DNA of 64,000 nucleotides from Trypanosoma brucei (lineage: Eukaryota): NCBI GenBank assembly GCA_000002445.1, contig CM000208.1, positions 1,408,001 to 1,472,000 of the forward strand, in the 5' to 3' direction. The first letter of the stretch is position 1. Every line of letters starts with the position of its first letter. The translations under genes were made by a program, and so were the position numbers. The notes beneath the pieces were generated by a model. That model was given only the letters and a program-made list of their open reading frames with translations, was not told where the DNA came from and did not search any database. Shown one piece after another: positions 1,063 through 32,016 of this stretch.

Positions 1063-1761
1063 ATGTACCCACTCCTCGTGTGCGCTGACCTGTACGGGGA
1101 GAAATACAATTTGGAGGTAAGGTTCCCTTCAAAACCGACCATAGAAGATCTCCAGAAGAGAATAGTTACTGTGTTTTCTACAGAAATGGACTCCCGGCGA
1201 CCAGAGGGGTACCCTGAGGCGGACTTTAGCATTGCATTAGTTCACATTTACGACGATAAATCTCAACAATGGGAGAAACTTCTTAGTGACGCGCAGCTGC
1301 ATGAATATGACCAACTCTACGTATTCCAGCCCCAGACAAGGTGGCATATGGACGTCCAAAAGAATCTTCCCCCTCCCACAACTCCTTCAAAAGACCATAG
1401 AACTGCTACACCTCATTCGATATGCAAATCACCACAATCAAAAGGTTGTGATGACGTATACTCTTTTTCACAGAATTGTGAAGCAACTGTAACAGCGAAA
1501 ACACGGTTGGAGGAGCAGCGGCGACGCGAACGAGTGCTCAGAGAAGAGTTATTTCGTGTCAGAGAGGAAACGGAACGGCTGGAGCGAGAGGCTGCGTTGG
1601 AGCTATCGCGGAAGCGTTTGCTCAAATGGCAGGTAATGTACACAAGTACTTCACACAAAGAGACAAGTGGTATTTACATGGCTAGTATGTGTAATTATCC
1701 ACCACTGGGAGAATGTCTTTACACCGTCGATGCGCCAAAACCTGTTTCGCCTGGCCGCTAG
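1063..1761 (+). CDS. hypothetical protein with C-terminal coiled-coil (RRRERVLREELFRVREETERLEREAALE)
   Basis: ATG at 1063 checked in sequence. The 232-aa ORF has coding-like composition and sits on the same strand as the downstream genes. I do not recognise the N-terminal domain. Confidence 0.45.
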   Translation: MYPLLVCADLYGEKYNLEVRFPSKPTIEDLQKRIVTVFSTEMDSRRPEGYPEADFSIALVHIYDDKSQQWEKLLSDAQLHEYDQLYVFQPQTRWHMDVQKNLPPPTTPSKDHRTATPHSICKSPQSKGCDDVYSFSQNCEATVTAKTRLEEQRRRERVLREELFRVREETERLEREAALELSRKRLLKWQVMYTSTSHKETSGIYMASMCNYPPLGECLYTVDAPKPVSPGR

Positions 1762-7845: not shown

Positions 7846-9030
7846 ATGAAGGTGAATTGTTTTCTACCTTTGTTGCTGTCAGTCAGTTATTGCACTTTAG
7901 CCGACGATAGCGCGCTCACACTGAAGGCGGGGGAAAGTATCTGCAAACTGTCGAAAAGGTTGAAGTCAGTGTTCAAGTATGTAGACCGAAGAACGGATAT
8001 TGCCTTGGAAAAGATCTCCGATCTTGAGGATATGTTGGAAGTGGTGAAGTTTAAGATTGTGAAGGGAAGGTCGAATAATACGAATAGAGAGTGCAAGGAT
8101 GTCTCCGATTTTATTATGAGTAAAGCAACTTGGTTGATAAGAAAAGGGAGGAAGGAGGTTGATAGATTGAAATACGTGGGGCTTGCGGCAATTGGAAATG
8201 CGGGACTGGCGGCAGGGAGGTTAGATGAGATGGTCAATGTGTGGAGGAGGGTGTACAGTGCCGGTACTGGAAACTTTTGCATTGGGGATGAAGGGAATGA
8301 AACAAAGAGGACTGCACTTCCAGATTGCTATCTGACAGATTCGGAGAGGGATGACTTTACTGGGATTGATGAAGGGGACAGGTTAGAAGATATAAACAAT
8401 GTTACCGCTGATGCCTTTAATGAATTATTGGAGTTGCATACAGAGGATGATTTGTGGAGTAGCCCATTGACGAGTGGCATGGACGGTAAGGACTGCCGTC
8501 TAACAAATGCCAGGTCTGGCGGAGGTTACCTCGTCGGAGAGAGCCCATCTGGTAATTTGTTTTGGGGAGACGGGGTGCTTGGGGTGAAGAGGGGTAGCCG
8601 AGGGTATGACGGAAGGACGTCGAATGTAAGGAGCAAATTACTCATAAATGATGTAGTGTGGGAAGCAGACACTGTAGAGCATACCCCTATTATAAGGAAT
8701 GTACACGAAGACTTGCAAAATTTTTTTATCGACGCAGAAAAAATTGATGAATTGGTGGGGGAGACTGGGGATAAGTGGAATTGGGAGTTCTCTCATGAAA
8801 TTGGAAGTCACAGTGGTCATCCCTCAGAGTTTGATGATGAGGAGACTGACGATGTAGCGGACAACACATCGGCAGTGGAAGAGGCAGTAGGGAAGGCATT
8901 TGTGGGGTTGGGAAATAGGGAAGCGTTTCAGGAAGAGATGGTGTTGGAAGAGATGGCGTTGTGTGGAGAATGTAATATTTACACTTATTACCAGTTGTTT
9001 TTCTTAGTTTTCGTTCCTGTTTTTGTTTGA
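7846..9030 (+). CDS. transferrin-receptor-like surface protein, ESAG6-like (PAG-like), with C-terminal hydrophobic GPI-signal-like tail
   Basis: N-terminal signal peptide (MKVNCFLPLLLSVSYCTLA). It matches the ESAG6/7 family core remembered from T. brucei ESAG6 (AAGRLEEWIFVFAQ...FCI; ...WGGGV...). Here the corresponding motifs are LAAIGNAGLAAGRLDEMVNVWRRVYSAGTGNFCIGDEG and LFWGDGVLGV...VVWEADTVEHTP. The C-terminus ECNIYTYYQLFFLVFVPVFV is hydrophobic, as in GPI-anchored ESAG6. Confidence 0.8.
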   Translation: MKVNCFLPLLLSVSYCTLADDSALTLKAGESICKLSKRLKSVFKYVDRRTDIALEKISDLEDMLEVVKFKIVKGRSNNTNRECKDVSDFIMSKATWLIRKGRKEVDRLKYVGLAAIGNAGLAAGRLDEMVNVWRRVYSAGTGNFCIGDEGNETKRTALPDCYLTDSERDDFTGIDEGDRLEDINNVTADAFNELLELHTEDDLWSSPLTSGMDGKDCRLTNARSGGGYLVGESPSGNLFWGDGVLGVKRGSRGYDGRTSNVRSKLLINDVVWEADTVEHTPIIRNVHEDLQNFFIDAEKIDELVGETGDKWNWEFSHEIGSHSGHPSEFDDEETDDVADNTSAVEEAVGKAFVGLGNREAFQEEMVLEEMALCGECNIYTYYQLFFLVFVPVFV

Positions 9031-9140: not shown

Positions 9141-10304
9141 ATGCTCAAGTTTGTTCTTGTGTTAATACTGATTATTGTTGGTGGTGACTATTGTTATCGT
9201 GGTAACGCTGGGGTGGCTTTGAAGTTGCAAGCCGTGAAGTCCGTGTGCAGAGCATCGAAAAAGCTTAAATCGGTTTTTACATTTGTGAAGGACAAACTGG
9301 AAAAAGCGGATAGAAACTTTTACGAGGTGAAACTGCTGCAAAAGCTACTCCGCTTGAAGCTTCTAACGGAATGGACTAAAGGAGAAAAGTGCGGGACAAT
9401 GAGGGTTTTTCTTACCAACATAAGGGCGAAGGAGAGAAATATGCGACGGGAACTGTCAGCCTTATGGAAAATGGGGAGGAGAGTTGTGGGTGAGGCAGGG
9501 ATTGCAGCTGGGAGACTGGACGAAATGGTGAATGTGTTCGCACAGTCGTACGGCAACGAAAGTGAAACGAAAACGTGTATTGGGGGTACAAATGGCAGTC
9601 CTATGGAGGTTTTGAAAAGGTGCTACGCTAACAATTCCAAAACAGGGGAATGGGAGTTCCTCACAATTACAGAGGGGGGAGAACTGTTTGACAACGAGTT
9701 TGAGACAAACTTGGAGACCACGCTTCACGTTATGTTGTCGCTTGGGAATAGAGCCGATCCGTGGTATGACTATGGAAAGGATATGGGGTGTCAACTCACT
9801 AAAGGAGCCCCTGGGGGTGGGTACATGAAGAGCCATAACCTCACAGAGAACATCATTTGGGGTGATGGCATACTCGGGGTGAGCAAAAATGGAAATGGAA
9901 CTACCGGCTCCAAAGGAAACACGAGAGATGGGAAATATGCTCACGATGTCGTGTGGGAAGCAGAACCCACGAAAAATAATCCCACTCTCCGCAGGGTGAT
10001 CAAAGATTTTAGTGCATTCGAAGAATTATTTGCGAAGGTGGAGTCTTCCCACAAGCTGTTAATAGATGCATTTCTCCAGGAGAAATTGTTTGCTGAGGAA
10101 TTCGAGGCTCTTGCGGTTAGAACTAAGAAGAAAAGAGTGATCATTGGCGGTTCCACCTCCACCAAAAATAAGCAGAACAATGCCTTGGGGGGTAGTGGTG
10201 CCGGCGATGATAACGAAGTGAGTATGGAAGAGTGGTTGTCGCAAGTGGATGGGGGAATTGTAGAAGAGAGGTTGTTGGCGGAGGAAATGAAGGAGTGTAC
10301 GTAA
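9141..10304 (+). CDS. transferrin-receptor-like surface protein, ESAG7-like (PAG-like), lacking a C-terminal hydrophobic tail
   Basis: Paralogue of the preceding gene (GEAGIAAGRLDEMVNVFAQSYGNESETKTCIGG; IIWGDGILGV...DVVWEAEPTKNNPTLRRVIKDF). Signal peptide MLKFVLVLILIIVGG. The protein ends ...ERLLAEEMKECT with no hydrophobic GPI signal, the arrangement of ESAG7 relative to ESAG6. The track ORF starts at TTG 9129; the real ATG is at 9141, preceded by a T10 polypyrimidine tract and AG. Confidence 0.8.
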   Translation: MLKFVLVLILIIVGGDYCYRGNAGVALKLQAVKSVCRASKKLKSVFTFVKDKLEKADRNFYEVKLLQKLLRLKLLTEWTKGEKCGTMRVFLTNIRAKERNMRRELSALWKMGRRVVGEAGIAAGRLDEMVNVFAQSYGNESETKTCIGGTNGSPMEVLKRCYANNSKTGEWEFLTITEGGELFDNEFETNLETTLHVMLSLGNRADPWYDYGKDMGCQLTKGAPGGGYMKSHNLTENIIWGDGILGVSKNGNGTTGSKGNTRDGKYAHDVVWEAEPTKNNPTLRRVIKDFSAFEELFAKVESSHKLLIDAFLQEKLFAEEFEALAVRTKKKRVIIGGSTSTKNKQNNALGGSGAGDDNEVSMEEWLSQVDGGIVEERLLAEEMKECT

Positions 10305-11928
10305 ACTACCTTGCACAAATTGGATAAAACTGCTTACCTAATATACAAATACATGTTAATATTGGATATAGTAATGTTTCCCCACTGGATTGATATTTGG
10401 GGTTCCCTTTTTTAAATTAGTTTCTTTGTGTTAAAGTGCCTGTAACTTTGTGGAGATGTCCGCCAACGAAACTACGCTGTTGCTGTTGGTTGTTGTGAGC
10501 GTACATTCTCGTCGAAACGCTTTGAGAAAACGAATCACAAAAGAATATATGTCAGGGAGTTGGCTGCCGCCCACCAACCCTGCGACAAGGACGAATGTAT
10601 AATCCTCAGTTTTTGAAATACTGAAAACATTTGTTGCCATGACACTTCCTCATTCGACTGTTGGTCCGTAGATACATGGTAAAGTATATGATTTACTCCG
10701 TAATCCACTAAAAAATTTGGGAGGGTAATATATAAAAAGTTGTCCCTTTTTAAGATCAAAAAGTTGTTTGAGAGGTGGCGGAAGTCCGCAGTCGCCGAGG
10801 TTGGGGAAATTACACCACAGTGGGGCCCAGGGTACCAGTGGCAACTGGATAAGAGGCCTGTACAATCCAATTAAACAAGTATCGTGCATTTTCTTGTTTT
10901 GAAAATAATATTGTAACGTGGCAACCACATTAGTGAAGTAAAGTTAGTATGTTTATGCGTGCACCTCTTGTGAGAGCGGTAGAGGCGAGGTCGACGCAAC
11001 AATAGGGATCAAGTCACTGGACGCCCCCCTCAAAAAAAAAAAAAGTAAGTGATCTCTCACTTCTCAACCATTAGTGGCGCTGGAAACTTCAAACGGTTTC
11101 AAAGGCCTGACTAACCAGTAATGTTGAGGAATTCCAAGAAAAAAGGCAACGTCCTACACACGAGAATCGTCGTTGCGTGCCACATACGGCGTTTCACAAG
11201 CGCACACGTACCGAGCTATCGCATATTTTTCACACCAGTTGCATTGGACACAGTTTCATGTGAAGGGGCGACTCTCACCAAACAAAACAAAGCTGGAGAG
11301 AAACAACTCACTGCCAAATAAGTCACCACAGTCATGCCCCGGTTTACCACCCCTTTTCAGTCGCCCCTCGCCTGTCTGTGCTTTTGGATGCTCCCGCAGC
11401 ACAACAAGGTTTAACCGTACAAAACGATGTTGAATCGAGCTGTATTTCGCGATACGTCGGCAACATCCGCCAACTGGTTGAGTCTCAGTTACCTTCCGTT
11501 AACGTGCTACATGCGTTCTCCTTGTGACGGGGAAAGCAAAGGTTGACTTAGTGATACGACCAAGACGTCTGTTAGCGCCCATACCAACAACGACTAACCA
11601 GAAGAGCATTCACGTCCCACGTTGGCAAGTCGTTTAACTTCGTCCGATTACAAAGACAAGAAAAAAGTCTTTCATCCGCCTCGGCGTGGAAAGCGAGGAG
11701 GTCATCAGCATTTCAAGATTCCTAATCCTAACCTTATTAATAAACACGTTGCTCCCCAAACCACTAATTTCAAATTTACATTAGGGACGAAACTCTCGTT
11801 GGCAAACAAATCGCAATGTCTTAGCATAAAAGCAATCGCCAGACTATCGAAACGCGTACTGTTGTGTGTCACATTTTTATTTTCTAAAACAAAATTTTAT
11901 TGGTATTTGTGTGATAGAAGATCAACTA

Positions 11929-12624
11929 ATGGACAAGCAGGAAATGTTGATTCTGTTATTTTCTTTACTGTTTCTTCGCAACCCAGCGGAAGCTTACATT
12001 TCGCGCTGGTATCTACGCCCGGATCGCGACCCGGATTGCACAGATTTGAAAGGCGTATCTGACGTTCTGACCATGATGCGTGATGCTGAAGTTGCCAAAT
12101 ACGCGACCAAAAATTGCACACAACTAAAGGGGGAGGACTCGCGTACAGGGAAGCAGACGGGCAACTGCACTATTTGCGTTGGTCATTACATCTGCCATTC
12201 TCTGTATAAATGTGTGAGTAAAGACTTTGTCAGGTTTTTTGGAAATGGTAGCCAGGAAGAACCCGCAAGCGAAGAAAAAAAGGACAACGAGTCGGCTCTA
12301 GATGCTGCAGACACTTCCTCCTCAGGAACTGGAACTGAGTCTCCTGAAGAAACTACTGGCGGTAGAACCAATGTTAGATCTAATGTGGAAGATGTGAATG
12401 ACGGTAAGGAGAATGTGACCTCTCCTGAAGAAGAAAGCAGGGGCGCTCCACACGGTACCGCGGTTCCCCCTCTCGAGGAAAGAAGCCCGAACCCTACTGA
12501 CAGAAACAACCTAACACGTAATCACGTCTTAACTCTATTTGCTGGAAAATTTTCAAGCAATTCTCAACTTGTGTTGAATTTAAACAATAAGATTATGCTT
12601 TCAACGTTATTTTTCTTGCTATAA
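11929..12624 (+). CDS. small secreted, probably GPI-anchored, acidic, N-glycosylated protein, copy 1 (family not recognised)
   Basis: ATG at 11929 checked; the track ORF begins at GTG 11866. Signal peptide MDKQEMLILLFSLLFLRNPAEA. The cysteine-containing N-domain has several N-x-S/T sites (NCTQ, NCTI, NGSQ, NESA, NVTS). An acidic S/T/E-rich middle follows (EEPASEEKKDNESALDAADTSSSGTGTESPEETTGG...). The C-terminus KIMLSTLFFLL is hydrophobic and GPI-signal-like. Confidence 0.55.
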   Translation: MDKQEMLILLFSLLFLRNPAEAYISRWYLRPDRDPDCTDLKGVSDVLTMMRDAEVAKYATKNCTQLKGEDSRTGKQTGNCTICVGHYICHSLYKCVSKDFVRFFGNGSQEEPASEEKKDNESALDAADTSSSGTGTESPEETTGGRTNVRSNVEDVNDGKENVTSPEEESRGAPHGTAVPPLEERSPNPTDRNNLTRNHVLTLFAGKFSSNSQLVLNLNNKIMLSTLFFLL

Positions 12625-13202
12625 AAAAGACGAGAGATAAACTAGTTTGCTAACTGAAAACAATCCAAAACCCCTAACTGTATTGCCGCTGTCCACGTAC
12701 ATATATGTTCATATCACCTATGAGCACCCAGTGGGTGTGTTCCAACATATATTTCCTCCCTATTTTGCGTACCCTTTTCATTTCGCAGGCACCATAGTGC
12801 TCATAACATCATATGTTTACAGATACGCCGAAGTTACTCTACATAGAGTAAGCGTACAAAACATATAACAGAAGGGGCTGCGTAATTAGCGATACTGTTT
12901 GCCAGTTACGTAACACAACAAATACTTGCTAGGTACCCACCTTGGACAGAGGCACGGGTGGAGTCGTGGACAATGTGTTGTGTGCTGCCGTTATCGATCA
13001 GTTGTGGCGAATGGTTGAACATGTACACTGTGAGTAAAGTGCCCCCTATAATACCTTTGTGAAACAGGAAAAGGTGTTTTAATGCATAGTAACCCTTATT
13101 GGTGGGTTGTAGTTGTTTCATCAAAATTTGTGTTGTTGTGTATTATATTTTTATTTTCCAAAACAAAATTTTATTGGTATTAGTGTGATAGAAGATCAAC
13201 TA

Positions 13203-13886
13203 ATGGACAAGCAGGAAATGTTGATTCTGTTATTTTCTTTACTGTTTCTTCGCAACCCAGCGGAAGCTTTCGAATCGCGTTCGTATGTAAAGCCAGATGG
13301 AGACCCGGACTGCACAAATTTGACAGGTGTTTCTCATGTTCCCTATCACAATGATATGGATGATTACGCGGAAGAAAATTGCACAAAAATAAAGACACCG
13401 TCTCATAATAAAGAGCAGACGGGCAACTGCACTCTTTGCGTTGGTCATTACATCTGTCATTCTCTGTATAAATGTGTGAGTAAAGACTTTGTCAGGTTTT
13501 TTGGAAATGGTAGCCAGGAAGAACCCGCAAGCGAAGAAAAAAAGGACAACGAGTCGGCTCTAGATGCTGCTGACACTTCCTCCTCAGGAACTGGAACTGA
13601 GTCTCCTGAAGAAACCACTGGCGGCAGAACCAATGTTAGATCTAATGTGGAAGATGTGAAGGACGGTAAGGAGAATGTGACCTCTCCTGAAGAAGAAAGC
13701 AGGGGCGCTCCACACGGTACCGCGGTTTCCCCTCTCGAGGAAAGAAGCCCGAACCCTACTGACAGAAAGAACCTACCACATGATCGCTTCCTCGCTTTAT
13801 TTACTGAACACTTTTTAAGCAATTCTCAACTTGTGTTGAATTTAAACAATAAGATTATGCTTTCAGCGTTATTTTTCTTGCTATAA
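13203..13886 (+). CDS. small secreted, probably GPI-anchored, acidic, N-glycosylated protein, copy 2 (paralogue of 11929..12624)
   Basis: ATG at 13203 checked. The signal peptide is identical and the region NCTLCVGHYICHSLYKCVSKDFVRFFGNGSQEEPASEEKKDNESALDAADTSSSGTGTESPEETTGGRTNVRSNVEDV is near-identical to copy 1. Divergent parts are FESRSYVKPDGDPDCTNLTGVSHVPYHNDMDDYAEENCTKIKTPSHNKE versus YISRWYLRPDRDPDCTDLKGVSDVLTMMRDAEVAKYATKNCTQLKGEDSRTGK. Hydrophobic tail IMLSALFFLL. Confidence 0.55.
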   Translation: MDKQEMLILLFSLLFLRNPAEAFESRSYVKPDGDPDCTNLTGVSHVPYHNDMDDYAEENCTKIKTPSHNKEQTGNCTLCVGHYICHSLYKCVSKDFVRFFGNGSQEEPASEEKKDNESALDAADTSSSGTGTESPEETTGGRTNVRSNVEDVKDGKENVTSPEEESRGAPHGTAVSPLEERSPNPTDRKNLPHDRFLALFTEHFLSNSQLVLNLNNKIMLSALFFLL

Positions 13887-15445
13887 AAAAACGAGAGATA
13901 AACTAGTTTGCTAACTGAAAACAATCAGAAATAGAGAGTGATATCGTTCATACGTGTTTAATTGTATTTTTTTACCAATATTGCTGTATGTTTCTTTGAA
14001 CATTTAGTGGCTTGTAGTATTGTACGGTAGTGGAAAAGGTAGACACCTAATGGGGTTTGTACTTCTGTTGATGGTGGTGTAGTGTTGTTAAAGGATAGCG
14101 CTATTGACAGGGGATTGCGTGTAACGAGGGAATGGAAAATGTGTTTGGGACTAATGGAAGGGAAACGTAGATAACATAATGTAGTGAGGTCGCGTAATTA
14201 ATGCTCATTACGGTAGCATGGCTTCGTGGCGGGGTCTGATGGATACGCAACGGCATGCGTGGGGTGAACAGGGGCTATGTTACCCAGGCAAATACGGAGA
14301 GAAATTGTATGCCACTGCATCGTTGCGCGGTGTAGGAAGGATATTGACCACATGGGATGTTATGTTGTACGAATCTGGTTTCTCTTTTGTCCTAATCTCC
14401 TAGTTGGGGGTGGAAAGGGAATCTGCTAGAGGAAACGGGGAGAGGCATTATGTCTGCGGCGGTTTCGTTGGTCGAGGGAAATGGGTATGGATATTAGATC
14501 CGACTTGAGAGCCGCTCTTCACTACACCAGATTGCGGAGCTCTATCCGAAGGAAAAGTGCACCGGCACGGTGGGCAATTGGGTAGAGTGCTCAGAGTTGT
14601 GAGTATATGCTAGGGTGTATTTGCATATTTCCTGCTGAACCAAAGCGGGAGACAGGAATAAGCGGGGATAATGGGATGGTTTCTCGTGGTTTGTACTGCT
14701 ATGCGCGGATGTTTTGTCAGGTGTGGACGACGGGTTAACTGAGGGGCGGCGTTTCCCGAAAAGAAAAGTGCGGAGCGGATGCGACGCAGATATATTTTTA
14801 AGGCGCGTAATTGGCAGTGCGGTAAGCATACTGAGGGATATCGGAAAATAGGACAGTGAATATGCGGAGGGGAGTGAGCAATGGCAACTCCTGAAAAATG
14901 AAAGACCAAGAGGCGACGCCGGTACGACACACGAGGAAAGCACAGAAGCATTTTCGCGTTGTTGGCCATCCAGCAAGCTTTTCCTCCCATCCATACAATG
15001 CTTCCGCTGCCCCTTTCACGTACATTGGTCCCCGCAGGTGTAGTTCCTGTGGATAATTCTCTTAGGGTTAAGTTCGATTTCTCCGCGTGAAGTGGTGTAC
15101 CCCCAAAATTCCCCATTATTGTTCGTCCCACCTTTACAGTTTGCGGTTTCCTTGCAGGCCTCTTTTTCTACACATCCGTAATCAAATTTGTTTGCCGCTT
15201 CCGTGTCAATGGATGTTCATTGGGTGCCACCGCAGAAGTGGTAGGGGACTCTGGGGCGAACGCTGTTTTTGACAAGTTCCAGAGTTTTCTGATTTTGTTA
15301 CTCTTTGTTTTAGTGATTTGTCGATCCATGACCTTCTGAGGCAGCTCTACGTTAGCCCCCGTTTCATATAGTTGTTGTTGTTTTTCCAAACGCTTTGCGG
15401 GCGTTTACGCACTCCTCGACGTCCACTCCCCGTATTGTACGGCCT
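13887..15445. other. convergent strand-switch region between the plus-strand unit (ends 13886) and the minus-strand unit (last gene ends 15446/16406), presumed Pol II transcription termination zone
   Basis: All confident ORFs left of 13886 are on the plus strand and all right of 15446 are on the minus strand. The region is relatively GC-rich and holds only overlapping short ORFs (14542-15131) with no recognisable product. I found no tRNA-like T-loop (GGTTCGAnTCC) by eye. Confidence 0.7.
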
Positions 15446-16405: not shown

Positions 16406-16993
16406 TCATTTGCTTCGCGTCAACCCAAGAGTGCAGCGGCGGTCACACAAAGGGCGACGATAACGAGGAAGGGAAGATGGGCTTTTAAGAAGCGACCGGC
16501 CGTGAATGGCAAGGCCCCATGCAATCCAAAACATATTCCACGGCCGCCGTGGTCCGTTTGTCATTTCCTCCAAAACAGACGCGACGTAAGAGTGGCAGTT
16601 GTTTGTGAAGAAATTGTACGTTTGTGTTTTGCGGAAACGCGTCGTAACGCCGCTTAGAGCTCTGTCGTACTCCTCCGTCTCCCGTCGCCTTCTCTCTTCT
16701 ACATCCCCCGACAACAAACCACCCGGAGGAAATCGGGAGGATGGAACGTACATGGCTGAAATGTCCCAATATTTTACGGGGTTTCCAAACAACATGTGAT
16801 CCACTCCAATGCAATACGACCCCTCAAAGTCAAATATTCTGCCAGTGGAATCACATATTCCCACGTGACCCACAAAGGGAAACAACCACGAGACCAGGGG
16901 GATATCGGTCCACACAATGCAGAACGGGTAACGCTCCGGGGTCACAGAGGAAGTTGAGGTTGTATTGTCACTCATTGCGTTCCGCCTTGTCAT
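16406..16993 (-). CDS. TMEM222 / RTE1-family protein (DUF778)
   Basis: RYPFCIVWTDIPLVSWLFPFVGHVGICDSTGRIFDFEGSYCIGVDHMLFGNPVKYWDIS and ...YNFFTNNCHSYVASVLEEM match the conserved TMEM222/RTE1 core (…PFxGHxGICxSxGxIxDFxGPY…; …NCHSFVA…). The track ORF starts at GTG 16999; the ATG is at 16993. Confidence 0.7.
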   Translation of the reverse strand: MTRRNAMSDNTTSTSSVTPERYPFCIVWTDIPLVSWLFPFVGHVGICDSTGRIFDFEGSYCIGVDHMLFGNPVKYWDISAMYVPSSRFPPGGLLSGDVEERRRRETEEYDRALSGVTTRFRKTQTYNFFTNNCHSYVASVLEEMTNGPRRPWNMFWIAWGLAIHGRSLLKSPSSLPRYRRPLCDRRCTLGLTRSK

Positions 16994-17759
16994 TACCACT
17001 GTTGCGTATGGCGTATTTGGTGTTCCTAAACTTGAAGTAAAAATATTCTAAAACCCTTGAAAGTGTGTGTGTGTGTGTGGAAGTGAAAATGAAGCTCGTA
17101 GACTCCAACAGTCCTCACCTAGTCCTCTATTTCTCCATTTAAGGTGAATGTGACAGCGCGGATGAGAAGCTACCATATAAATTCATCGCTTTGCGTCGTT
17201 CGGACAATGAAATGCGATGCCTACGCACCCTCATCGGATGGAATTAACCGCTTCTGTCTTGTTTCTCACGTCTTTTTTTTTTGTTTTGCAGGTGGAGGAA
17301 CGACATGATTCATCAACATTGGTCAGCCTATAGCATCCCCACATCTCCTCATCTCGAAAGGAACACAGAGTGCATGATGTAACATTCCAAATAAACAAAA
17401 TAAAATAAACGGCAAGAAATAAAAAAAAACAATTGCGAAAACAAACACGGAGCGAAAGTGCCGTGACCCCCCCCCCCAAAAAAAAAAAATTATGAAAAAA
17501 TTAGTCACCACACCTTTGTAACATATATATATCCCGCATGTCACCTTCGACAATACTGCAACAAAAGTGACAATAATATTATTTGAACATCGCAATGATG
17601 CGCCTTCAGTGCAACAGAAACAAGGGTGACAGAAAATCACCCTTGACTTTCCATGGGCCTGTTTTCCACTCTCAGAATCTGGCTTTATTGAATGCATTTC
17701 TTCGCCGATGGGCCCTCTCCTAAAAATTCCGTAACGATAGCAAAACTATTTTTTCGCCC

Positions 17760-18569
17760 TCATTCAGTAAACAAGTAATTCCGTACATTGGCCCTACCAA
17801 ACGATATGCTAGCAACCTCCTCCGCGATATTTCCATTTGCGGCACCGACCAATGTTAAGAGCGGCATCAGGTGCTCGTGTTCACGGAGTGGTTGCGCTTC
17901 AGTGAAGCCCTCCATTGTTTTTACACGCTCCATCGCCTTCAGGCGGTCCTCAGGAAGCGTCGCAACCTCATTTTTACATAGAATGGAAGTCAGTGCATCT
18001 CCAAACTTCCTCCCAGCTCCCTCGCGGTTAAAATGCGCAAAATGGTGCATGGTGGAGCCACTTCCAATAAACATTACAGCATCAGAGCGTAAGGGACGGA
18101 GAGCCTTCCCCATGCGTATGTGCTCTGCAGGATCACCGGATCGCAACACAGACAGAGGTACCACAGGGATATTGGCTTCGGGGAACATGATCATGAGTGG
18201 GACAAACACGCCGTGGTCAAGAAGCCGCTCGGGTTCCATTTCCGCATGAAATCCTCCAACCGTGAGAGCATTCACAATGGCAGCAGCAAGTGGCGCATTA
18301 CCCGGCACGGGATATCGAAACTTATAGCTTTCTTCTGGAAATCCGTAGTAGTCAAACAGTAGAGAGGGCCGCTCCGCTCCGCCAACTTTTGGTGTATTCG
18401 TCTCATAATGTGCAGAAATCACAACAATGGCTTTCGGAAGGCCAAAACGATTCTCTAAAAGTTTCCGGTGGCTCTTAAGGGCATCAACCAACATTTTGTG
18501 CCCCTCATCCCGCAATAACGGCAAGGGGCCACCGCCATGACACACAAATAGTGAGGGGTACACCGTCAT
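17760..18569 (-). CDS. extradiol aromatic ring-opening dioxygenase, LigB/DODA (YgiD-like) family
   Basis: MTVYPSLFVCHGGGPLPLL...AIVVISAHYETN...FDYYGFPEESYKFRYP...DHGVFVPLMIMFPEANIPVVPLSV... is typical of class III extradiol dioxygenases (4,5-DOPA dioxygenase-like). The track ORF extends to 18734 by reading through the upstream polypyrimidine tract (LFIFLLLLFFLFLF). I place the start at the ATG 18569 (cat at 18567-18569 checked). Confidence 0.8.
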   Translation of the reverse strand: MTVYPSLFVCHGGGPLPLLRDEGHKMLVDALKSHRKLLENRFGLPKAIVVISAHYETNTPKVGGAERPSLLFDYYGFPEESYKFRYPVPGNAPLAAAIVNALTVGGFHAEMEPERLLDHGVFVPLMIMFPEANIPVVPLSVLRSGDPAEHIRMGKALRPLRSDAVMFIGSGSTMHHFAHFNREGAGRKFGDALTSILCKNEVATLPEDRLKAMERVKTMEGFTEAQPLREHEHLMPLLTLVGAANGNIAEEVASISFGRANVRNYLFTE

Positions 18570-18599
18570 GAGTAGTAAGAACTTTGGTAATTTGTTTGT

Positions 18600-18720
18600 T
18601 CCATCAACCGCGATACCGCATAATATTGAAACAACAAAAACAGAACGAAATGAAACAAAAAGAAACAAAAAAAAAAGAAGCAACAAAAAAATGAATAGAT
18701 AAATCCGCGGCAGTAAAGAT
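18600..18720 (-). promoter_or_regulatory. polypyrimidine tract (polypurine on the plus strand) upstream of the dioxygenase gene, a splice-acceptor signal region
   Basis: On the plus strand: aacaacaaaaacagaacgaaatgaaacaaaaagaaacaaaaaaaaaagaagcaacaaaaaaatgaatag, the reverse complement of a T/C-rich tract on the coding (minus) strand, just 5' of the ATG at 18569. Confidence 0.5.
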
Positions 18721-20448
18721 TTTAATGTTACCAATTAGATAGTTGTGTGCATTGGAGGCGCTCCAAGCACTCAAACAACAGAGCGAAGCCTCCGTTCGTG
18801 GATGAAGTTGTGTCACATAAAGTAAGAGGCCGGCACGATACAAACGAACAAACAAAACGCACGTATTCACATTCAAAAACCCATCGCCCACAGCATGACA
18901 CCGAAAAGTGACCTCTGTAACGACGATGGCTACGACCGCAACTACTACCATAAGAGGCCGCTACATATATCCAAATAAAAACAACAACACCAACAACACA
19001 AAAGAGGAGTGCTGTATAACATGCGCCCCATTGGATCACCTGTTTCCTATGTTTTCCTTCCATTACTCCTTTGCTCCATTACAGTCCTCCTCCTCCTCCT
19101 CCAAACTCACGCACACACACGCGTACACACTCTGTTCACGCCTTCTCCTCCGTGCACAAGGCACAAAAGGAAGAAAAAAGAAAAAGAAAAAAAAGTACAC
19201 ATACATAGAGTCTCCACTAAACTAACGGATTCAACTTAACGGAGCGCCCTATACATTTTGCACATTTGCACTCGTTGGCGGCAAACAGGAATAACACCCT
19301 TCTGTTACATCTGTATTTTCCCCTCATTTATTTCTCTTCCTTACCCGTCATTCCAAGGGAAAGTGTGCACCATAAAAGACAAAGGGTCAAAAAAGAAAAG
19401 ATCCAGCACGGTGTCATTGTGAAGGGAGATACCGTGCACAAAAGGTAAAGCACACAATCTTCAAGGGATAAAAACAAAAGGAAGAATTGTGCGAAAAAAG
19501 GGGGGAAACGGTTGTAACAGGAAGGAAAAGGAGGGAAAAAAAACAAAATTGAAGCTCACGGTGACGGAAGTAGGCGATAACACACAAAAAAAAAGTATTT
19601 CGCAACGAGAAGCAACGAAAAGACGACACGCCGACGGGGAAAATGTGCATAAGGAAGCGCAATCTCAACTTAAGTTGTTGAATGTACTGCATCTACTGCC
19701 GTACCTCGTGCAAATAACACCAACAACAACATCCCCCCGCAAAAACATTTATTCCTTCATCCAACCGCTGATGCGCTGGCATTGGCGTTTAGCGTCTCTT
19801 GTTTCCTCGCAGTGCACCGTTGTTGTTTCAATAAGGAGAATATTTGGCCTTTTAACCCGAACACATGCGAAGAGATACACACATGCACACACGGAAAAAC
19901 AAAAACACCTCGGGAGGGCTCGCTGCTGCCCTGTAGAAGCGCAAGTCAACGATCGATACATTCAAACCTTTCCATCGTCAACAACCGTTGGGAGGAAAAG
20001 AAACAAAAAAAACACGAGTGGGCATACAGCCTTACGTGTTGTATATATTCTTTGGTACGTGTCGGTCTATCCGCCTCCTGTACCGTACGCGCCATGATAC
20101 GCGGTTCCAACTACACGGAAGCACGTTAACCGCACAACCTGCAATTGTCGGAGGCAATGGACACGAATTCCCTTAAGCGGTAATTTCTGGTACAAAAGTC
20201 GCTCAGTAAACCAGTTAACATTCCCCCTTTGATCGCCCATTTTGTTCCCTCTTGTTTTCGTTCATTTCTCTTTCTTTCCATTCTTCTATACAAGGTTACG
20301 GTTCGGACGCCTTTTCCCTTGTGCTTTTTTTTGTAATATTTATTTGCTTATATATATATATATATTTATTTATTTATTTAATTCTTTGATTCTTGTGCAA
20401 AACTCCCCACCCCGATTGCCACTGCAATGTTTTTTCCTTCCCCCCCTG

Positions 20449-21096
20449 TTACAACTTGCTCTTTTCGATACGAAGAAGTTCATCCACTTTTGTGGCCACT
20501 GATTTGAGCACAACGGGAAGCGGAGGGTTGCCATCAACTTCCAACACCTTCCCACGGTAATATTCCATGAGGGATGCCTTCTGCTTCAGATAAACCTGCA
20601 TGCGGCGTCTGTGCTTTTCCCTGTTGTCGTCTGAGCGAATCAAAAGACGACCCATAATTTCTTGCGGCGACGGATCACTCTTTAGGTTGTAAATGCGGCC
20701 GGTCACTGGGTCTAAACGGCGGAACACGCAACGTTCCTCAAGTTTAATCTCGTCAACATCGATAAAAATCATCGCATCCACCTTGAACCCATTGGCGGCA
20801 AGCGTCTCCGCCTGTGCTCGGGTGCGTGGGAAACCATCAAGGAGAATTCCCCTTCCTTTTGTGTCAGGGCGTTGAAGGCGGTTAATAATCATGGCAACAA
20901 CCACATGGTCTGGTATTAGTTGTCCCTCACTCATAAGCCCCTCAACCTGCCGACCGATTGCACTACCCTTCTTCACTTCCTCTCGTAAGAGATTCCCCGT
21001 GCTTACGTGAATAAAATCATAACGACGGACAAGAAACTCGCTCGCAGTCCCTTTGCCACATCCCGGCGCTCCAAATAAAAGGATATGCAGACCCAT
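20449..21096 (-). CDS. adenylate kinase with C-terminal -SKL (PTS1-like, glycosomal-type) tripeptide
   Basis: P-loop GAPGCGKGT, NMP-binding GNLLREEV...GQLIPD, and ILLDGFPRTRAQAE are adenylate-kinase hallmarks. The ORF ends ...LLRIEKSKL then stop. ATG at 21096 checked. Confidence 0.9.
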   Translation of the reverse strand: MGLHILLFGAPGCGKGTASEFLVRRYDFIHVSTGNLLREEVKKGSAIGRQVEGLMSEGQLIPDHVVVAMIINRLQRPDTKGRGILLDGFPRTRAQAETLAANGFKVDAMIFIDVDEIKLEERCVFRRLDPVTGRIYNLKSDPSPQEIMGRLLIRSDDNREKHRRRMQVYLKQKASLMEYYRGKVLEVDGNPPLPVVLKSVATKVDELLRIEKSKL

Positions 21097-21901
21097 TCTT
21101 CAATTTATAAACAAACAAAGGTTCGTTATGAAACACAGCCCGCTACACGCTGACACTTCCTCCACGCTAATAGACAACCCTTTTCCTTGTATATTTGCTT
21201 GCTATTTGTCTTCCGTCATGTAAACTCCCCGTACGGGAAACTGGTTAAGTTTTCACCAAGAAAAGGGGCGCTAACACAACTGTTAAAAAAAATAAAATAA
21301 AATAGAAAACAGAAGAGTTAAAAAGGATGGATGAGGACCAGTGCAGGTGCTGATTTAAGGAGCAAACAATAGAAATCCTACCCTAGGTGATGCCGAACCG
21401 GCTCTGCGTGAAGCGTTACACTCTCTCAAGACCCTCCATATTTTTTTTGGGGGTTATTTCCTCAACTTCACGCGCCGTGCTGCGTTTGGCCATTTCTTAT
21501 CTTTCCTACGGCGCATGAGTAGGCGAAAAGCAAGGAGAAGAGAAGAGAAGGGATGGAAAAAAAAAAATGGGGAATAAAAAAACCACAGGACGCGAGTCGT
21601 CATTTCCCCCTTCTCACTTTCCCTCCCTTTTCTTTAAAAAGTTGCTGCTCAGCACACCATCCCAAATGTGACTTGGGTACGGAAAGAGCAGCTTTCAACA
21701 TAAAAAAAAAGTAAAAAAAAAAAGAAGTGGCGAAGCTCCCACAAGAATTACCACGAAGGGCATCTACGTCCACGAAGAGGGGGAAAAAAAAAACATACAA
21801 AAACTTCCGTTTTCCTAGTGCGGAAGACAAACAGAAGTTTTTGTCTGTTTTTTTTTTTCCTCTTCGTCAACTTATTCAGTCGGTAAAGGGTAAAATCCCA
21901 C

Positions 21902-24277
<2,376 letters not shown>

Positions 24278-25745
24278 TTAAAAAAAAAGAAAAAGTTATA
24301 TTGCCCCCAAATTTTGTTTTCTTGCACGCGTCCTTCTGTTGCGAGAAGTTGGATCTGCTATGTGCTTCTCCTACACTTCTTCGCGGTTCTGGATTATATA
24401 TGCACACAGCGCTTTCAAGTTAGAGTTTTTTTGTTCCCTTTTTTTACCGTTGCTGATTTCGTCCTTTTATCCTACTTCTAACTTTTCACCCCTCCCGATT
24501 GGTCCCTAAAGAAGCGACCTTTATATCCTTTATTTTTTTCCTTCAAATATTCTTCTTCTTCAGTGTCGTTTAACAACAAGTTTTGCAGTGATAAGCTTTG
24601 AGTGGTTGAAAGGGGGAGGAAATGGTAAAAGCGGAAGAGAACAGTAGAAAATGACACAAGATTGGTGTTATAAACGGGTAGAAACAAAAAATAATTCAGT
24701 GTTGATACGAAGGAAATATCCAATCTAAAAAGAAAAGGAGAAAAAAAAAAGGGAGACAGACAAACTACTACCATTTTGGAAGTGATATATATGGGACAAA
24801 TCCCTAAAGCTGTTGGCCGCACAACACGACACAACAGACAGCTCTCTTTCTGTATGAATAATACGTAGCGCACATAATTCTATCAACATCATCACCTTCA
24901 GTAGCAGTAGCGGAAGCAGCAGCGTTTGCGGCGGCAGGAAAAACAACAACAGTAATAATAATGGAGTGCACAATCAATGATTACACATGATGGTGTGCCC
25001 ATACGCGTAATAAACGTGCGGTGGAGGTAACGAGATGAAGAAAGCAATGATGTTTTTCTCTAACTCTATCACACTCCACTTCCATCATATTTGTAAATGT
25101 GATAAACGAACAACCGGCAACATAAACGAATATGCAAAATAATAATAAAACGAAATAAAACAGAGAACAGCCGTAAAGAAACGCACGATAATAACCGATC
25201 AAGGTAACGACACGCAGCTGCACAAGAAGTAACTACCAATATTCACATTGTATTATACAACATGGCAGAGGGAGGTAAGTCATATGTTACCACATTCACC
25301 CGAGATTACACACATCACACCACTTCCCAAAACTCCTTTCGCGCGCTTTCATTCTTTTGTGCCACGCCATCACATTCCACAACACTATGGCTGCACGATT
25401 GCCTCGTGTTGTAAAAGAAAAAAAAAATACGCGCGGGTCACTCATTCATGACACTTTCGAGGGAAAATAACGAACACAACATGTGAAAAGTGCTCATATT
25501 ATCAAAGGGACACATAAGTATACAAAGAAATCAACAAAGCGTACTTCGGTTTTGCGCGGAACTGATGAAGCGTTTGTATCCATGTGATAGGTAAATAAAT
25601 AAATTAAATAAATCAAATAGTTGAATTGCGACCGTTTCTTACTCCCTACCTGCCAAAACAAATACATCATCTCCTCCTTTTCCCTTCCCCCCCCAAACTC
25701 CACTACACAGTGCATCAAGCGTATCCTTAAGTGAGAACATTCTCG

Positions 25746-27476: not shown

Positions 27477-28113
27477 TGTGCGAAGTAAGTTAAGTGTATT
27501 ACAAAACTAAACAATAATAATAATAATAATCACTACTATCGTTGTTATCGTTATTTATTGCGATTGTTGCGAAACCACCAGCCAGTTTATATGGGTATAT
27601 TTGTGAGGTTTTTCCTCAAAGCTCCGCTACTGCTGCTACAACCTGAGCACGCTGTGGGCTACACCACCAACACAAGTACGCAGACACACAAACGAGCTGC
27701 AGCTACTACCAAAGAAATGAGGGAAAAAAGGAAAATACAGAACTTTAGCTCATTTCTGGGCAAGGAGCCAACACAAGTCGCATTCTCCTCATGTGAATGC
27801 CAAGTACTTTGGGAAGCCGGAGGCGAAACAAAAGTGGTGTACCACTTAACCTTCTCGGCTTTTCTCTTTAACGCCTGCGCACCTCTTGTGTGATTTCATT
27901 TGGAAACATCTCAACCGATCTAATACATTAAGTGGGTTTTGGTGCAGAGGAATTGATCAAGATAGAGTGAGCCAAGGGAGCTGTGTTTTAAAAAAAAAAG
28001 GAGAGAGAAAACAAGACCAAAGCACAATAGTAACGACCACAGAAAACATGTTCTCCCCTTTACCTTTTTCTTACTATTTTTCAACTTGCTACCCATGCCA
28101 ACGTGCCCCAACC

Positions 28114-29724: not shown

Positions 29725-30369
29725 TTTGTTGTTGATGTTGTCTCACTTTCTTCTATCCTGCTTTTTCCCCCTAGAGTAAATGTCCAGTTTTGTTTTGCTT
29801 TTCTGTAGAATAGGTGCCTCCCGGCTATGTGCGGGAACGCAAAATAAAAATAATGATAATAATAATAATAGAAGGACGGAAAAGGCAACTTGCATCAAAC
29901 CAAGCAACAGGGGAGGAGAATAACAGGGGCGAAAGAAAATCCTTAGCAGCGATGACGGCACCCAACACCGGAAATTCCCCCCCCCCCCATGTTTTCAACC
30001 GCATCCACATCCATCGCGACCGCCACACCCAACACATGCTCGAGAAGAACTGTCATTTCGCCGGGGTCAGAAGAAAAGTAACTAATATATATATATATAT
30101 GTCCAGAAAACTAACTTCAAACTGACTGCATTCCATACCGCCCAATCCATAAGAGGAGCTGTTGCCGTTTTTCAACATTTCCACTACCGTATCGCCCTGG
30201 GATGTGATATCAAAGATATCACAACAGAACCGTACGGCCACCTAAGACGGGTATGAGCGCAGAGGCGTTTACAACGGGGAGTCAAACAACTGGGAAAAGA
30301 TGACAACATCATAAAGTGAAGTAAATACAAAGGTAGAAGTCTATGGAAAACGTAACTTCGTTAACAAAC

Positions 30370-30783
30370 CTAAAGTTGGTTTTCACACCACGGATACAAA
30401 GATGCACCAGAACGTCTAATTCCCTTCGCGGCCACCGCTATGCGGCGAAGCAGCAACCCTTCCTTTTGCATGAATTCCTCTCGACGCCGCAAAGCCGCAG
30501 TAATCCCACCCCAACACCTTTCCCCTCCCGCCTCCCTAAGGAGTGCCAATAAATGTTCATTCCTGCAATTGCGCGCATCACCATCACCATCACCAACAAC
30601 GTGGCGCAACATGAAATCGTACTGCTCGAATGTCCATTTACCACCACTGGCAGCAACACGCTCGGACACAACACGTTGAAATGCAGTTGCCTCATCACAC
30701 ATCAGAAGCGTCCGCTGAAGGTGCTCCGTACATATAATCTCAACAACAGCGATATGACATTCAGCATTGGAAGGTCCCGCCAT
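30370..30783 (-). CDS. small hypothetical protein (137 aa)
   Basis: ATG at 30783 checked. Same strand as neighbours; no recognisable domain. Confidence 0.3.
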   Translation of the reverse strand: MAGPSNAECHIAVVEIICTEHLQRTLLMCDEATAFQRVVSERVAASGGKWTFEQYDFMLRHVVGDGDGDARNCRNEHLLALLREAGGERCWGGITAALRRREEFMQKEGLLLRRIAVAAKGIRRSGASLYPWCENQL

Positions 30784-31980: not shown

Positions 31981-32016
31981 CCCACAAACACACAAACACA
32001 AACACACACACACACA
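31981..32016. repeat. CA-rich microsatellite (cacaaacacacaaacacaaacacacacacacacac)
   Basis: Read directly. The complementary (GT)8 lies at 17063-17078. Confidence 0.85.

What the first reader, a model, noticed from the sequence alone, without database searches (positions are those of the whole stretch)
11866..13925. Tandemly duplicated, unrecognised small GPI-type surface glycoprotein genes with mosaic conservation
Two 1,274-bp tandem copies each encode a protein of about 230 aa. Each has a signal peptide, a Cys-containing N-domain with multiple N-glycosylation sequons, an acidic S/T/E-rich stalk and a hydrophobic C-terminal GPI-signal-like tail. Between copies, the signal peptide, the stalk and the 5' and 3' flanking processing signals are almost base-for-base identical. 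The predicted exposed N-terminal domain (about 60 aa) and the 20 aa before the GPI signal are heavily substituted. That pattern fits concerted evolution or gene conversion of the body together with diversification of the exposed domain, as seen in parasite surface antigens. I cannot place the sequence in any named trypanosome surface family (VSG, ESAG1-12, procyclin, BARP/GARP, ISG), so it may be a lineage-specific or undescribed family.
Basis: partly seen in the sequence, partly recalled or inferred. Interest (0 to 1): 0.75.

Follow-up and report, generated by a model that had tools for sequence, protein, structure and literature searches.

The report
Known T. brucei Fam5/ESP3 gene pair
These are the two already annotated Trypanosoma brucei genes Tb927.10.5700 (ESP3) and Tb927.10.5710, small predicted GPI-anchored glycoproteins of the brucei-only 'Fam5' family, and their patchwork similarity is an ordinary case of tandem copies being homogenised by recombination except for an old, divergent N-terminal segment.

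Summary
Two tandem genes (CDS 11929-12624, 231 aa; 13203-13886, 227 aa) encode proteins with a signal peptide, a six-cysteine head, an acidic stalk and a GPI-signal-like tail. Differences cluster in two blocks, codons 23-75 and 193-209 (permutation p<5e-5). Only about 820 bp is duplicated, not 1,274 bp; the 449-bp spacer is single-copy here.

The genes are not unrecognised. The window is T. brucei TREU927 chromosome 10, and the genes are Tb927.10.5700 (ESP3) and Tb927.10.5710. They belong to Fam5 of the published cell-surface phylome and to an orthogroup of eight brucei-only genes. Earlier studies predicted them to be GPI-anchored and detected both proteins in bloodstream forms.

The concerted-evolution reading holds. 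Synonymous divergence is 0.83 in the N-terminal block, 0.05 in the core and stalk, and 0 in the signal peptide. T. b. equiperdum carries a third, chimaeric copy flanked by identical spacers, the signature of unequal crossing-over.

The diversifying-selection reading does not hold. dN/dS in the N-terminal block is 0.3-0.56, and the copy-1 head is 99-100% identical across three subspecies. That block is old, not fast-evolving.

Function remains unknown. This is a catalogued family showing a well-documented recombination process.

The parts
11846..12670 (+). Repeat copy 1: short 5' flank with polypyrimidine tract, CDS, and about 45 nt of 3' flank
   Evidence: Direct repeat families D1-D3. blastn 11860-12665 vs 13134-13926 gives 89.1% over 809 columns. 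Identity decays at both edges.
11929..12624 (+). CDS of Tb927.10.5700 (ESP3), 231 aa plus stop
   Evidence: Translation. 100% identical to XP_822814.1/EAN77986.1 of T. b. brucei TREU927. The equiperdum orthologue is named 'Enriched in surface-labeled proteome protein 3'. ESP3 = Tb927.10.5700.
11929..11994 (+). Signal peptide, codons 1-22 (MDKQEMLILLFSLLFLRNPAEA)
   Evidence: No differences between any of the 7 copies in 3 subspecies. h-region KD mean 3.1. Published SignalP probability 0.975.
11995..12153 (+). V1: divergent N-terminal half of the Cys head (codons 23-75), type A
   Evidence: 54% DNA identity to copy 2 with indels. dS 0.83, dN 0.47. Contains the family-invariant residues C37, Y58, A59, N62, C63, T64.
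12154..12243 (+). Homogenised C-terminal half of the Cys head (codons 76-105: QTGNCTxCVGHYICHSLYKCVSKDFVRFFG)
   Evidence: 97-100% identical between copies. Holds the family-invariant G78, N79, C80, T81, C83, C89, C95.
12244..12504 (+). Acidic S/T/E/P-rich stalk, codons 106-192, probably disordered
   Evidence: Composition 24% D+E, 23% S+T, 9% P. No secondary structure and pLDDT about 30 in both AF2 models. Core plus stalk dS is 0.052.
12505..12555 (+). V2: divergent 17 codons (193-209) just before the predicted omega site
   Evidence: 70% identity. 13 non-synonymous vs 2 synonymous differences.
12556..12624 (+). Predicted GPI-addition signal (S210-N-S, spacer QLVLNLNNK, tail IMLSTLFFLL) plus stop codon
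   Evidence: Sequence features. Published GPI score 0.997. Listed as high-likelihood GPI-anchored. Anchor addition itself has not been shown.
12671..13119 (+). Single-copy spacer: most of the copy-1 3' region and the intergenic region
   Evidence: No match upstream of copy 1 or downstream of copy 2. 99.1% identical to the gambiense and equiperdum spacers. It is duplicated at 100% identity in equiperdum.
13120..13931 (+). Repeat copy 2
13203..13886 (+). CDS of Tb927.10.5710, 227 aa plus stop. It is the last gene of the + strand transcription unit.
   Evidence: Translation. 100% identical to XP_822815.1. A convergent strand-switch region lies between Tb927.10.5710 and .5720. All ORFs with Pfam hits from 16406 to 33960 are on the - strand, and so are all the long ORFs to 61130.
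13269..13415 (+). V1 of copy 2 (codons 23-71), type B
   Evidence: Only 85% identical to the type-B V1 of gambiense and equiperdum (dS 0.28).
13767..13817 (+). V2 of copy 2 (codons 189-205)
   Evidence: Unique to TREU927 copy 2. Its second half is shared with equiperdum copy 3.

Best explanation
The region holds Tb927.10.5700 (ESP3) and Tb927.10.5710, two tandem paralogues of the T. brucei-restricted Fam5 family.

Protein (inferred from sequence and published predictions). Each protein enters the secretory pathway through a cleavable signal peptide. It carries an ~80-residue head with six conserved cysteines and two conserved NCT glycosylation sites. The head sits on an ~90-residue acidic, probably disordered and glycosylated stalk. 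The protein is predicted to receive a GPI anchor at the conserved S-N-S motif.

Evolution (shown here). The pair is an old duplication. Its signal peptide, second half of the head, stalk and GPI signal are repeatedly homogenised by gene conversion and unequal crossing-over between the tandem copies. The first 53 mature residues (V1) have escaped homogenisation. They persist as two deeply diverged classes, with a third sub-class in other subspecies.

Open points. Either selection keeps two distinct heads, or the ~46% DNA divergence itself blocks homologous exchange. The data do not decide between these. The biochemical function of the head is unknown. My working guess is a ligand- or host-factor-binding head held out on a flexible stalk in bloodstream and/or metacyclic forms, which is inference only.
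For: Identity:
- 100% matches to XP_822814.1 and XP_822815.1 on the 4.05-Mb TREU927 chromosome.
- ESP3 = Tb927.10.5700, labelled Fam05.
- Orthogroup OG0000380 = Tb927.3.2550/2560/2570/2580/5670/600 plus Tb927.10.5700/5710, with none in T. congolense, T. vivax or T. cruzi.

Family:
- An exhaustive HMMER search of 1.84 billion representatives found only Tb927.3.5670 (E 3.8e-4) and Tb927.3.600 (E 6.3e-4) beyond the close copies.
- These share the framework C...YAxxNCT...GNCTxC...C...C and the same overall architecture.

Secretory and GPI status:
- Sequence features and published predictor scores.
- Protein detected in bloodstream forms: 4 peptides and 2842-fold enrichment in the surface-labelled fraction.
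- Tb927.10.5710 was allocated to 'secretory/endocytic 1' with p=0.9999 in T. brucei BSF hyperLOPIT iteration 1.

Concerted evolution:
- dS is 0 in the signal peptide, 0.83 in V1, 0.052 in core plus stalk, and 0 in the tail. Differences are clustered with p<5e-5.
- The 927 copies are more alike in core and stalk (98.0%) than copy 2 is to its gambiense orthologue (96.6%).
- Equiperdum has three copies. The middle one is a chimera: type-B V1 joined to copy-1 core, stalk, V2 and tail. Its two spacers are 100% identical.
- V2 and stalk variants assort independently of V1 type among the seven copies.
- Identity decays at both edges of the duplicated block, as expected for an old duplication homogenised internally.
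- Chimaeric copies from conversion were reported in 21 of 47 T. brucei tandem arrays. Fam4-7 are described as tandem and adjacent to strand-switch regions.
Against: - GPI anchoring and surface exposure have not been demonstrated. N-terminally sfGFP-tagged ESP3 localised to 'other', not to the flagellar pocket, cell body or flagellum. The authors allowed that it could be a contaminant or mislocalised by the tag.
- Expression data conflict. RT-PCR found low levels, detectable only in salivary-gland parasites and not in bloodstream forms. The phylome paper and two proteomes indicate bloodstream forms.
- In gambiense the two copies are less alike in core and stalk (95.2%) than orthologues are (97.7%). 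Homogenisation is therefore episodic and not uniform across strains.
- No structural or functional homologue was found, so the 'binding head' idea has no direct support.
Confidence: 0.8

Rival explanations
1. The duplication is recent (about the age given by dS 0.05). V1 and V2 of one copy were then overwritten by short ectopic gene-conversion patches from a diverged donor elsewhere in the genome, as in mosaic VSG formation.
For: The boundaries between near-identical and ~55-70% identical tracts are sharp. V2 and part of V1 in TREU927 copy 2 are unique among the seven copies examined.
Against: No protein in the 5.8-billion or 1.84-billion sequence sets carries a closer V1 or V2. The only other relatives are 25-35% identical paralogues. 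The window holds no other copy. The outer edges of the duplicated block are as diverged as V1, which fits an old duplication. Ectopic conversion was rare among T. brucei tandem arrays, substantiated in 2 of the 47 arrays. Unannotated pseudogenes in subtelomeres could not be searched.
Confidence: 0.08
2. One reading: the exposed N-terminal domain is under diversifying (positive) selection like a parasite surface antigen, while the rest of the gene is conserved.
For: V2 shows 13 non-synonymous vs 2 synonymous changes (dN/dS about 2.2). Equiperdum copy 3 shows 6 vs 0 in V2. Type-B V1 differs by 15% between TREU927 and gambiense/equiperdum.
Against: V1 dN/dS is 0.48-0.56 between types and 0.29 between the two type-B variants. 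dS in V1 is about 16-fold that of the core, so the block is old rather than fast. Type-A V1 has 0-1 differences in 159 nt across three subspecies, fewer than the core has. The cysteines and NCT sequons inside V1 are invariant across the family. The V2 counts are small and I ran no significance test.
Confidence: 0.1
3. The proteins are not cell-surface components. They are residents or cargo of the ER, endosomal or lysosomal system, or are secreted, and they appeared in the surface-labelled proteome as contaminants.
For: sfGFP-ESP3 localised to 'other', and the authors list it among possible contaminants. hyperLOPIT places Tb927.10.5710 in 'secretory/endocytic 1'.
Against: Enrichment in the surface-labelled fraction was 2842-fold, ninth in the list. 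The C-terminal GPI-signal prediction is strong. Known surface proteins cycle through endosomes, and N-terminal GFP fusions can mislocalise.
Confidence: 0.3

Closest known systems
Fam5 of the African-trypanosome cell-surface phylome (Jackson 2013) = OrthoFinder OG0000380: Tb927.3.600, Tb927.3.5670, Tb927.3.2550-2580
   Same: Same length class (223-232 aa). Signal peptide, six-Cys framework with two NCT sequons, acidic low-complexity stalk and hydrophobic C-terminus. Restricted to T. brucei, tandem, and adjacent to a strand-switch region.
   Different: Only 25-35% identical to the chromosome 10 pair. The chromosome 3 members lack the SNSQLVLNLNN segment before the tail.
Other T. brucei-specific strand-switch-adjacent tandem families (Fam1, Fam4, Fam6, Fam7)
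   Same: Hypothetical secreted or GPI-predicted proteins in small polymorphic tandem arrays at strand-switch regions, with copy number varying between strains.
   Different: Fam1 is VSG-b-like. The proteins here hit no Pfam model, VSG models included.
Concerted evolution with chimaeric copies in T. brucei tandem arrays (Jackson 2007), including ESAG6/7-type turnover
   Same: Variation is distributed discontinuously, chimaeric copies occur, unequal crossing-over changes copy number, and conversion tracts span start and stop codons into short UTR flanks.
   Different: This is only a two-gene array. In the text I could read, the pair was not among the arrays analysed individually.
Procyclins and other stalked GPI proteins of trypanosomes
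   Same: Signal peptide, extended acidic region and GPI signal (own knowledge of procyclin architecture).
   Different: No sequence similarity and no repeats. This protein has a disulfide-rich head, and its expression is not procyclic-specific.

Membership tests
Fam5 / OG0000380 (T. brucei-specific hypothetical surface family) | Sequence clusters with the other family members | tested here: met
   Profile HMM hits to Tb927.3.5670 (E 3.8e-4) and Tb927.3.600 (E 6.3e-4) against 1.84 billion proteins. tblastn E 1e-8 to 3e-10 against the window. Published assignment to Fam05 and to OG0000380.
Fam5 / OG0000380 (T. brucei-specific hypothetical surface family) | Predicted signal peptide and no similarity to known proteins | tested here: met
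   Signal-peptide features. No Pfam hit at E<=0.1. No PDB sequence hit below E 0.77.
Fam5 / OG0000380 (T. brucei-specific hypothetical surface family) | Restricted to T. brucei; tandem; adjacent to a strand-switch region | tested here: met
   Only T. brucei subspecies hits. 8-0-0-0 orthogroup. The pair is the last + strand genes before the convergent region.
Fam5 / OG0000380 (T. brucei-specific hypothetical surface family) | Preferential bloodstream-form expression | not testable with these tools
   The literature conflicts. Bloodstream-form proteomes detect the proteins. RT-PCR found low expression, in salivary-gland parasites only.
GPI-anchored surface glycoprotein | Cleavable N-terminal signal peptide | tested here: met
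   Hydrophobic h-region followed by AEA. Published probability 0.975. This is prediction only.
GPI-anchored surface glycoprotein | C-terminal signal: small omega residues, polar spacer, hydrophobic tail | tested here: met
   S-N-S + QLVLNLNNK + IMLS(T/A)LFFLL. Published GPI score 0.997 and 'high likelihood' listing. I could not run a GPI predictor myself.
GPI-anchored surface glycoprotein | Anchor actually attached and protein exposed on the cell surface | not testable with these tools
   Published data are mixed: 2842-fold surface-label enrichment against GFP-tag localisation 'other' and hyperLOPIT 'secretory/endocytic 1'.
VSG / VSG-related / ESAG6-7 / PAG (Pfam Trypan_glycop) and other named trypanosome surface families in Pfam | Match to the family's profile HMM | tested here: not met
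   No Pfam-A family at E<=0.1 for either copy. In the same call the two upstream ORFs hit Trypan_glycop at 8e-11 and 2.4e-13.
Antigen-like gene under diversifying selection | dN/dS above 1 in the exposed domain and rapid turnover between strains | tested here: not met
   V1 dN/dS is 0.29-0.56. Type-A V1 is 99.4-100% conserved across three subspecies. V2 dN/dS is about 2.2 but rests on 15 changes; no significance test was run.
Tandem array under concerted evolution (gene conversion / unequal crossing-over) | Discontinuous divergence along the gene, with synonymous sites included | tested here: met
   dS is 0 / 0.83 / 0.052 / 0.195 / 0 for signal peptide / V1 / core plus stalk / V2 / tail. Permutation p<5e-5.
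Tandem array under concerted evolution (gene conversion / unequal crossing-over) | Chimaeric copies and copy-number change between genomes | tested here: met
   2, 2 and 3 copies in TREU927, DAL972 and equiperdum (window). Equiperdum copy 2 is a V1-B/copy-1 chimera with 100% identical spacers.

The most novel reading that the evidence does not exclude
The deeply diverged N-terminal half-heads are kept apart by balancing selection. There are at least three classes: A, B of TREU927, and B of gambiense/equiperdum. They would act as alternative ligand-binding or immunologically distinct heads on a shared, continually homogenised stalk-and-anchor chassis. On this reading Fam5 is a small, uncharacterised receptor- or invariant-antigen-like system of mammal-infective T. 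brucei, with a trans-subspecies polymorphism.
Probability: 0.12. Interest if true: 0.5.

Novelty: already known. Interest (0 to 1): 0.2.

Why it matters
This changes little. The genes are annotated, assigned to a published family, and have been tagged and detected by mass spectrometry. Recombinational homogenisation is a documented general property of T. brucei tandem arrays.

Two points may be useful to specialists:
- The 'variable' head segment is ancient and conserved within type, not hypervariable. That makes ESP3-type proteins behave more like invariant antigens than variant ones.
- The two copies share almost none of their 3' regions, so they may be regulated differently.

The function of Fam5 remains an open, modest question in trypanosome surface biology.

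Tried and rejected
- Two AlphaFold2 runs, on alignments of 7 and 10 family sequences, gave mean pLDDT 33 and 40. I therefore ran no fold search, because matches to such models would be meaningless.
- Pfam scans of both copies and of three paralogues found nothing credible.
- A PDB sequence-profile search gave nothing below E 0.77.
- A profile of the head domain alone (alignment A4) returned no hits at all, not even the query proteins. I treat that as a technical failure rather than a result.
- The full-length profile search added only a T. equiperdum copy of Tb927.3.5670.
- An exact-sequence lookup of the TREU927 copy-1 protein found no contig on record.
- Text searches for Tb927.3.600, Tb927.3.5670 and 'Fam5' found no functional study.
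- tRNA scan of the window: none.
- I considered a local mutational hot spot as the cause of high V1 divergence. I rejected it because type-A V1 is nearly invariant between subspecies.
- I considered the chromosome 3 paralogues as conversion donors and rejected them, since they are only 27-37% identical in local protein alignments (25-27% globally).

Full report
**What is in the sequence**

Two direct repeats lie at 11846-12670 and 13120-13931. They are 89% identical over 809 aligned columns. Each contains one intact ORF. The biologically sensible starts are the ATGs at 11929 and 13203. These give proteins of 231 and 227 residues that both begin MDKQEMLILLFSLLFLRNPAEA.

Start-to-start spacing is 1,274 bp, shrinking to 1,261-1,262 bp downstream of indels in the N-terminal region.

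The '1,274-bp unit' is not duplicated in this genome. The 449 bp between the repeats (12671-13119) matches nothing upstream of copy 1 or downstream of copy 2.

**Protein features**

The following come:
- The signal-peptide h-region has a mean Kyte-Doolittle value of 3.1.
- Each copy has six cysteines and six N-X-S/T sequons.
- The stalk is 87 residues long, with 24% D+E, 23% S+T and 9% P.
- The C-terminus has small residues (S-N-S), a spacer (QLVLNLNNK) and a hydrophobic tail (IMLSTLFFLL or IMLSALFFLL).

**The mosaic is real**

Identity is 98-100% from about 70 bp upstream of the ATG through the signal peptide. It drops to 54%, with indels, over 11995-12153 (codons 23-75, 'V1'). It returns to 97-100% through the second half of the Cys head and the whole stalk. 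It drops to 70% over 12505-12555 (codons 193-209, 'V2'). It is again 96-100% through the GPI-type signal and about 45 nt beyond the stop codon.

Of the 106 differing columns, 75 fall within one 160-column window, and the longest identical run is 113 columns. Neither value was reached in 20,000 permutations of the columns.

**What the genes are**

Copy 1 is 100% identical to XP_822814.1 and copy 2 to XP_822815.1 of T. b. brucei TREU927, on the 4,054,025-bp chromosome record. [quoted passage not shown]

Published work on these genes:
- Gadelha et al. 2015 (PMC4587319) list ESP3 = Tb927.10.5700. Their surface-proteome table has Tb427.10.5700 with 12 PSMs, 4 peptides, 21.6% coverage, 2842-fold enrichment, signal-peptide probability 0.975, GPI score 0.997 and the family label Fam05.
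- In the same study the N-terminal sfGFP fusion localised to 'other'. The authors say such proteins may be contaminants or mislocalised by the tag.
- Savage et al. 2012 (PMC3378594) list Tb927.10.5700 and .5710 as a gene family with a high likelihood of GPI anchoring and orthologues only in T. b. gambiense. They found low transcript levels, detectable only in salivary-gland parasites.
- Jackson et al. 2013 (PMC3605285) describe Fam4-7 as T. brucei-specific hypothetical proteins with signal peptides. These families are adjacent to strand-switch regions, typically tandem, and preferentially expressed in bloodstream forms.
- Moloney et al. 2023 (PMC10361982) place both genes in one orthogroup with Tb927.3.2550-2580, Tb927.3.5670 and Tb927.3.600. 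That is eight T. brucei genes and none in T. congolense, T. vivax or T. cruzi. They allocate Tb927.10.5710 to 'secretory/endocytic 1' (p=0.9999) in bloodstream-form iteration 1.
- A convergent strand-switch region between Tb927.10.5710 and .5720 is described in PMC4162612. This fits the window: + strand genes run up to 13886, and - strand genes (RTE1-like, LigB, adenylate kinase, VCP and others) follow from roughly 14.6 kb.

**My own homology searches agree**

- A word-indexed search of 5.8 billion proteins found only T. brucei subspecies copies.
- An exhaustive HMMER profile search of 1.84 billion representatives added only Tb927.3.5670 (E 3.8e-4) and Tb927.3.600 (E 6.3e-4).
- A broader profile added one T. 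equiperdum protein.
- The distant paralogues share the architecture and an invariant framework, in copy-1 numbering: C37, Y58-A59-x-x-N62-C63-T64, G78-N79-C80-T81-x-C83, C89, C95.
- There is no Pfam family and no PDB sequence relative.
- AlphaFold2 models were unusable, with mean pLDDT 33 and 40, so I made no fold comparison.

**How the mosaic arose**

Nei-Gojobori estimates between the two window copies:

| Region | dS | dN |
|---|---|---|
| Signal peptide | 0 | 0 |
| V1 | 0.83 | 0.47 |
| Core plus stalk | 0.052 | 0.011 |
| V2 | 0.195 | 0.436 (2 synonymous, 13 non-synonymous changes) |
| Tail | 0 | 0.019 |

Synonymous sites in V1 are about 16-fold more diverged than in the rest of the gene. 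V1 therefore looks much older than its surroundings, not faster-evolving under positive selection. Its dN/dS is 0.56.

I fetched the loci from T. b. gambiense DAL972 (two copies) and T. b. equiperdum (three copies). They show the following:
- Copy-1 ('type A') V1 is 99.4-100% identical across the three subspecies. It has fewer differences than the core.
- 'Type B' V1 of TREU927 differs by 15% from that of gambiense and equiperdum (dS 0.28, dN/dS 0.29). This points to a third old class.
- Stalk variants and V2 variants assort independently of V1 type among the seven copies.
- The middle equiperdum copy has type-B V1 joined to copy-1-like core, stalk, V2 and tail. Its two spacers are 100% identical. 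This is the product expected from unequal crossing-over between misaligned copies 1 and 2, with the breakpoint just after V1.
- In TREU927 the paralogues are more alike in core and stalk (98.0%) than copy 2 is to its gambiense orthologue (96.6%). In gambiense the opposite holds (95.2% against 97.7%), so homogenisation is episodic.
- Identity decays at the outer edges of the duplicated block. This fits an old duplication refreshed internally.

The left boundary of the homogenised tract lies inside the folded head, at the family-wide conserved QTGNCT motif.

This behaviour is typical for T. brucei. Jackson 2007 (PMC1855330) found chimaeric, conversion-derived copies in 21 of 47 tandem arrays, with tracts often spanning start and stop codons. 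Ectopic conversion was rare.

The architecture, the lineage restriction and the concerted-evolution component are right. The 'unrecognised/undescribed family' component is wrong, and the 'diversification as in surface antigens' component is not supported for V1. V2 has an excess of non-synonymous change, but it rests on only 15 substitutions.

Why V1 stays unhomogenised cannot be settled here. One possibility is selection for two distinct heads. The other is that 46% divergence simply prevents homologous exchange.

**Function**

Nothing here or in the literature I could read establishes a function. The best-supported statement is this: both are secretory-pathway glycoproteins, predicted to be GPI-anchored, that are made in bloodstream forms. 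Their surface exposure is uncertain.

A ligand-binding head on a long flexible acidic stalk is a reasonable guess but is inference only. The two copies share only about 45 nt after the stop codon, so their 3' regions differ almost entirely. Differential regulation is therefore possible (inference).

**Verdict**

This is a correct observation of a known, catalogued gene pair showing a well-documented recombination pattern. Novelty and interest are low.

Noticed in passing
window 7846-9030 and 9141-10304 (+ strand): Two tandem VSG-A-type / PAG-like genes sit immediately upstream (Pfam Trypan_glycop 8e-11 and 2.4e-13; 31% identical to each other). The first ends in a hydrophobic GPI-signal-like tail (...YYQLFFLVFVPVFV). 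The second ends ...LLAEEMKECT with no such tail. This GPI+/GPI- pairing recalls ESAG6/ESAG7. Tb927.10.5690 ('PAG2, putative', Fam14), presumably one of these two ORFs from its gene number and annotation (not checked by sequence), is in the bloodstream surface proteome.
   Followed up: partly
L002 4729-7963 (T. b. equiperdum chromosome 10): This genome has three Fam5 copies instead of two. The middle copy is a chimera (type-B head on a copy-1 body) and the two inter-copy spacers are 100% identical. This indicates a very recent unequal crossover.
   Followed up: yes
window 13269-13415 and 13767-13817 vs L001 6001-6693: Copy 2 of TREU927 differs from its positional orthologue in gambiense and equiperdum far more in V1 (85% identity, dS 0.28) and V2 (70%) than in the core (96.6%). 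This suggests an old polymorphism or a third head class segregating in T. brucei.
   Followed up: partly
window about 13900-15400: This is the convergent strand-switch region directly after copy 2. It has strong positive GC skew (0.44 at 14000-14499) and no tRNA genes. A paper reports that silenced transcripts from this region accumulate on RBP33 depletion.
   Followed up: no
window 12186-12509 and 13457-13822 (- strand): Antisense ORFs of 107 and 121 aa lie opposite the stalk-coding region in both copies. They look like by-products of the low-complexity GA-rich coding sequence and are not independent genes.
   Followed up: no
window 1063-1761 (+ strand): A 232-aa ORF has a BILBO1 N-terminal domain hit (Pfam PF18281, E 5.4e-9). 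It is followed by a DnaJ-domain protein and a NatA auxiliary-subunit homologue in the same transcription unit.
   Followed up: no
alignment A4 (head domain only): The profile search with plain-letter sub-sequences returned no hit at E<=1, not even the source proteins. The full-length alignment worked. This is probably a tool-side issue rather than biology.
   Followed up: partly
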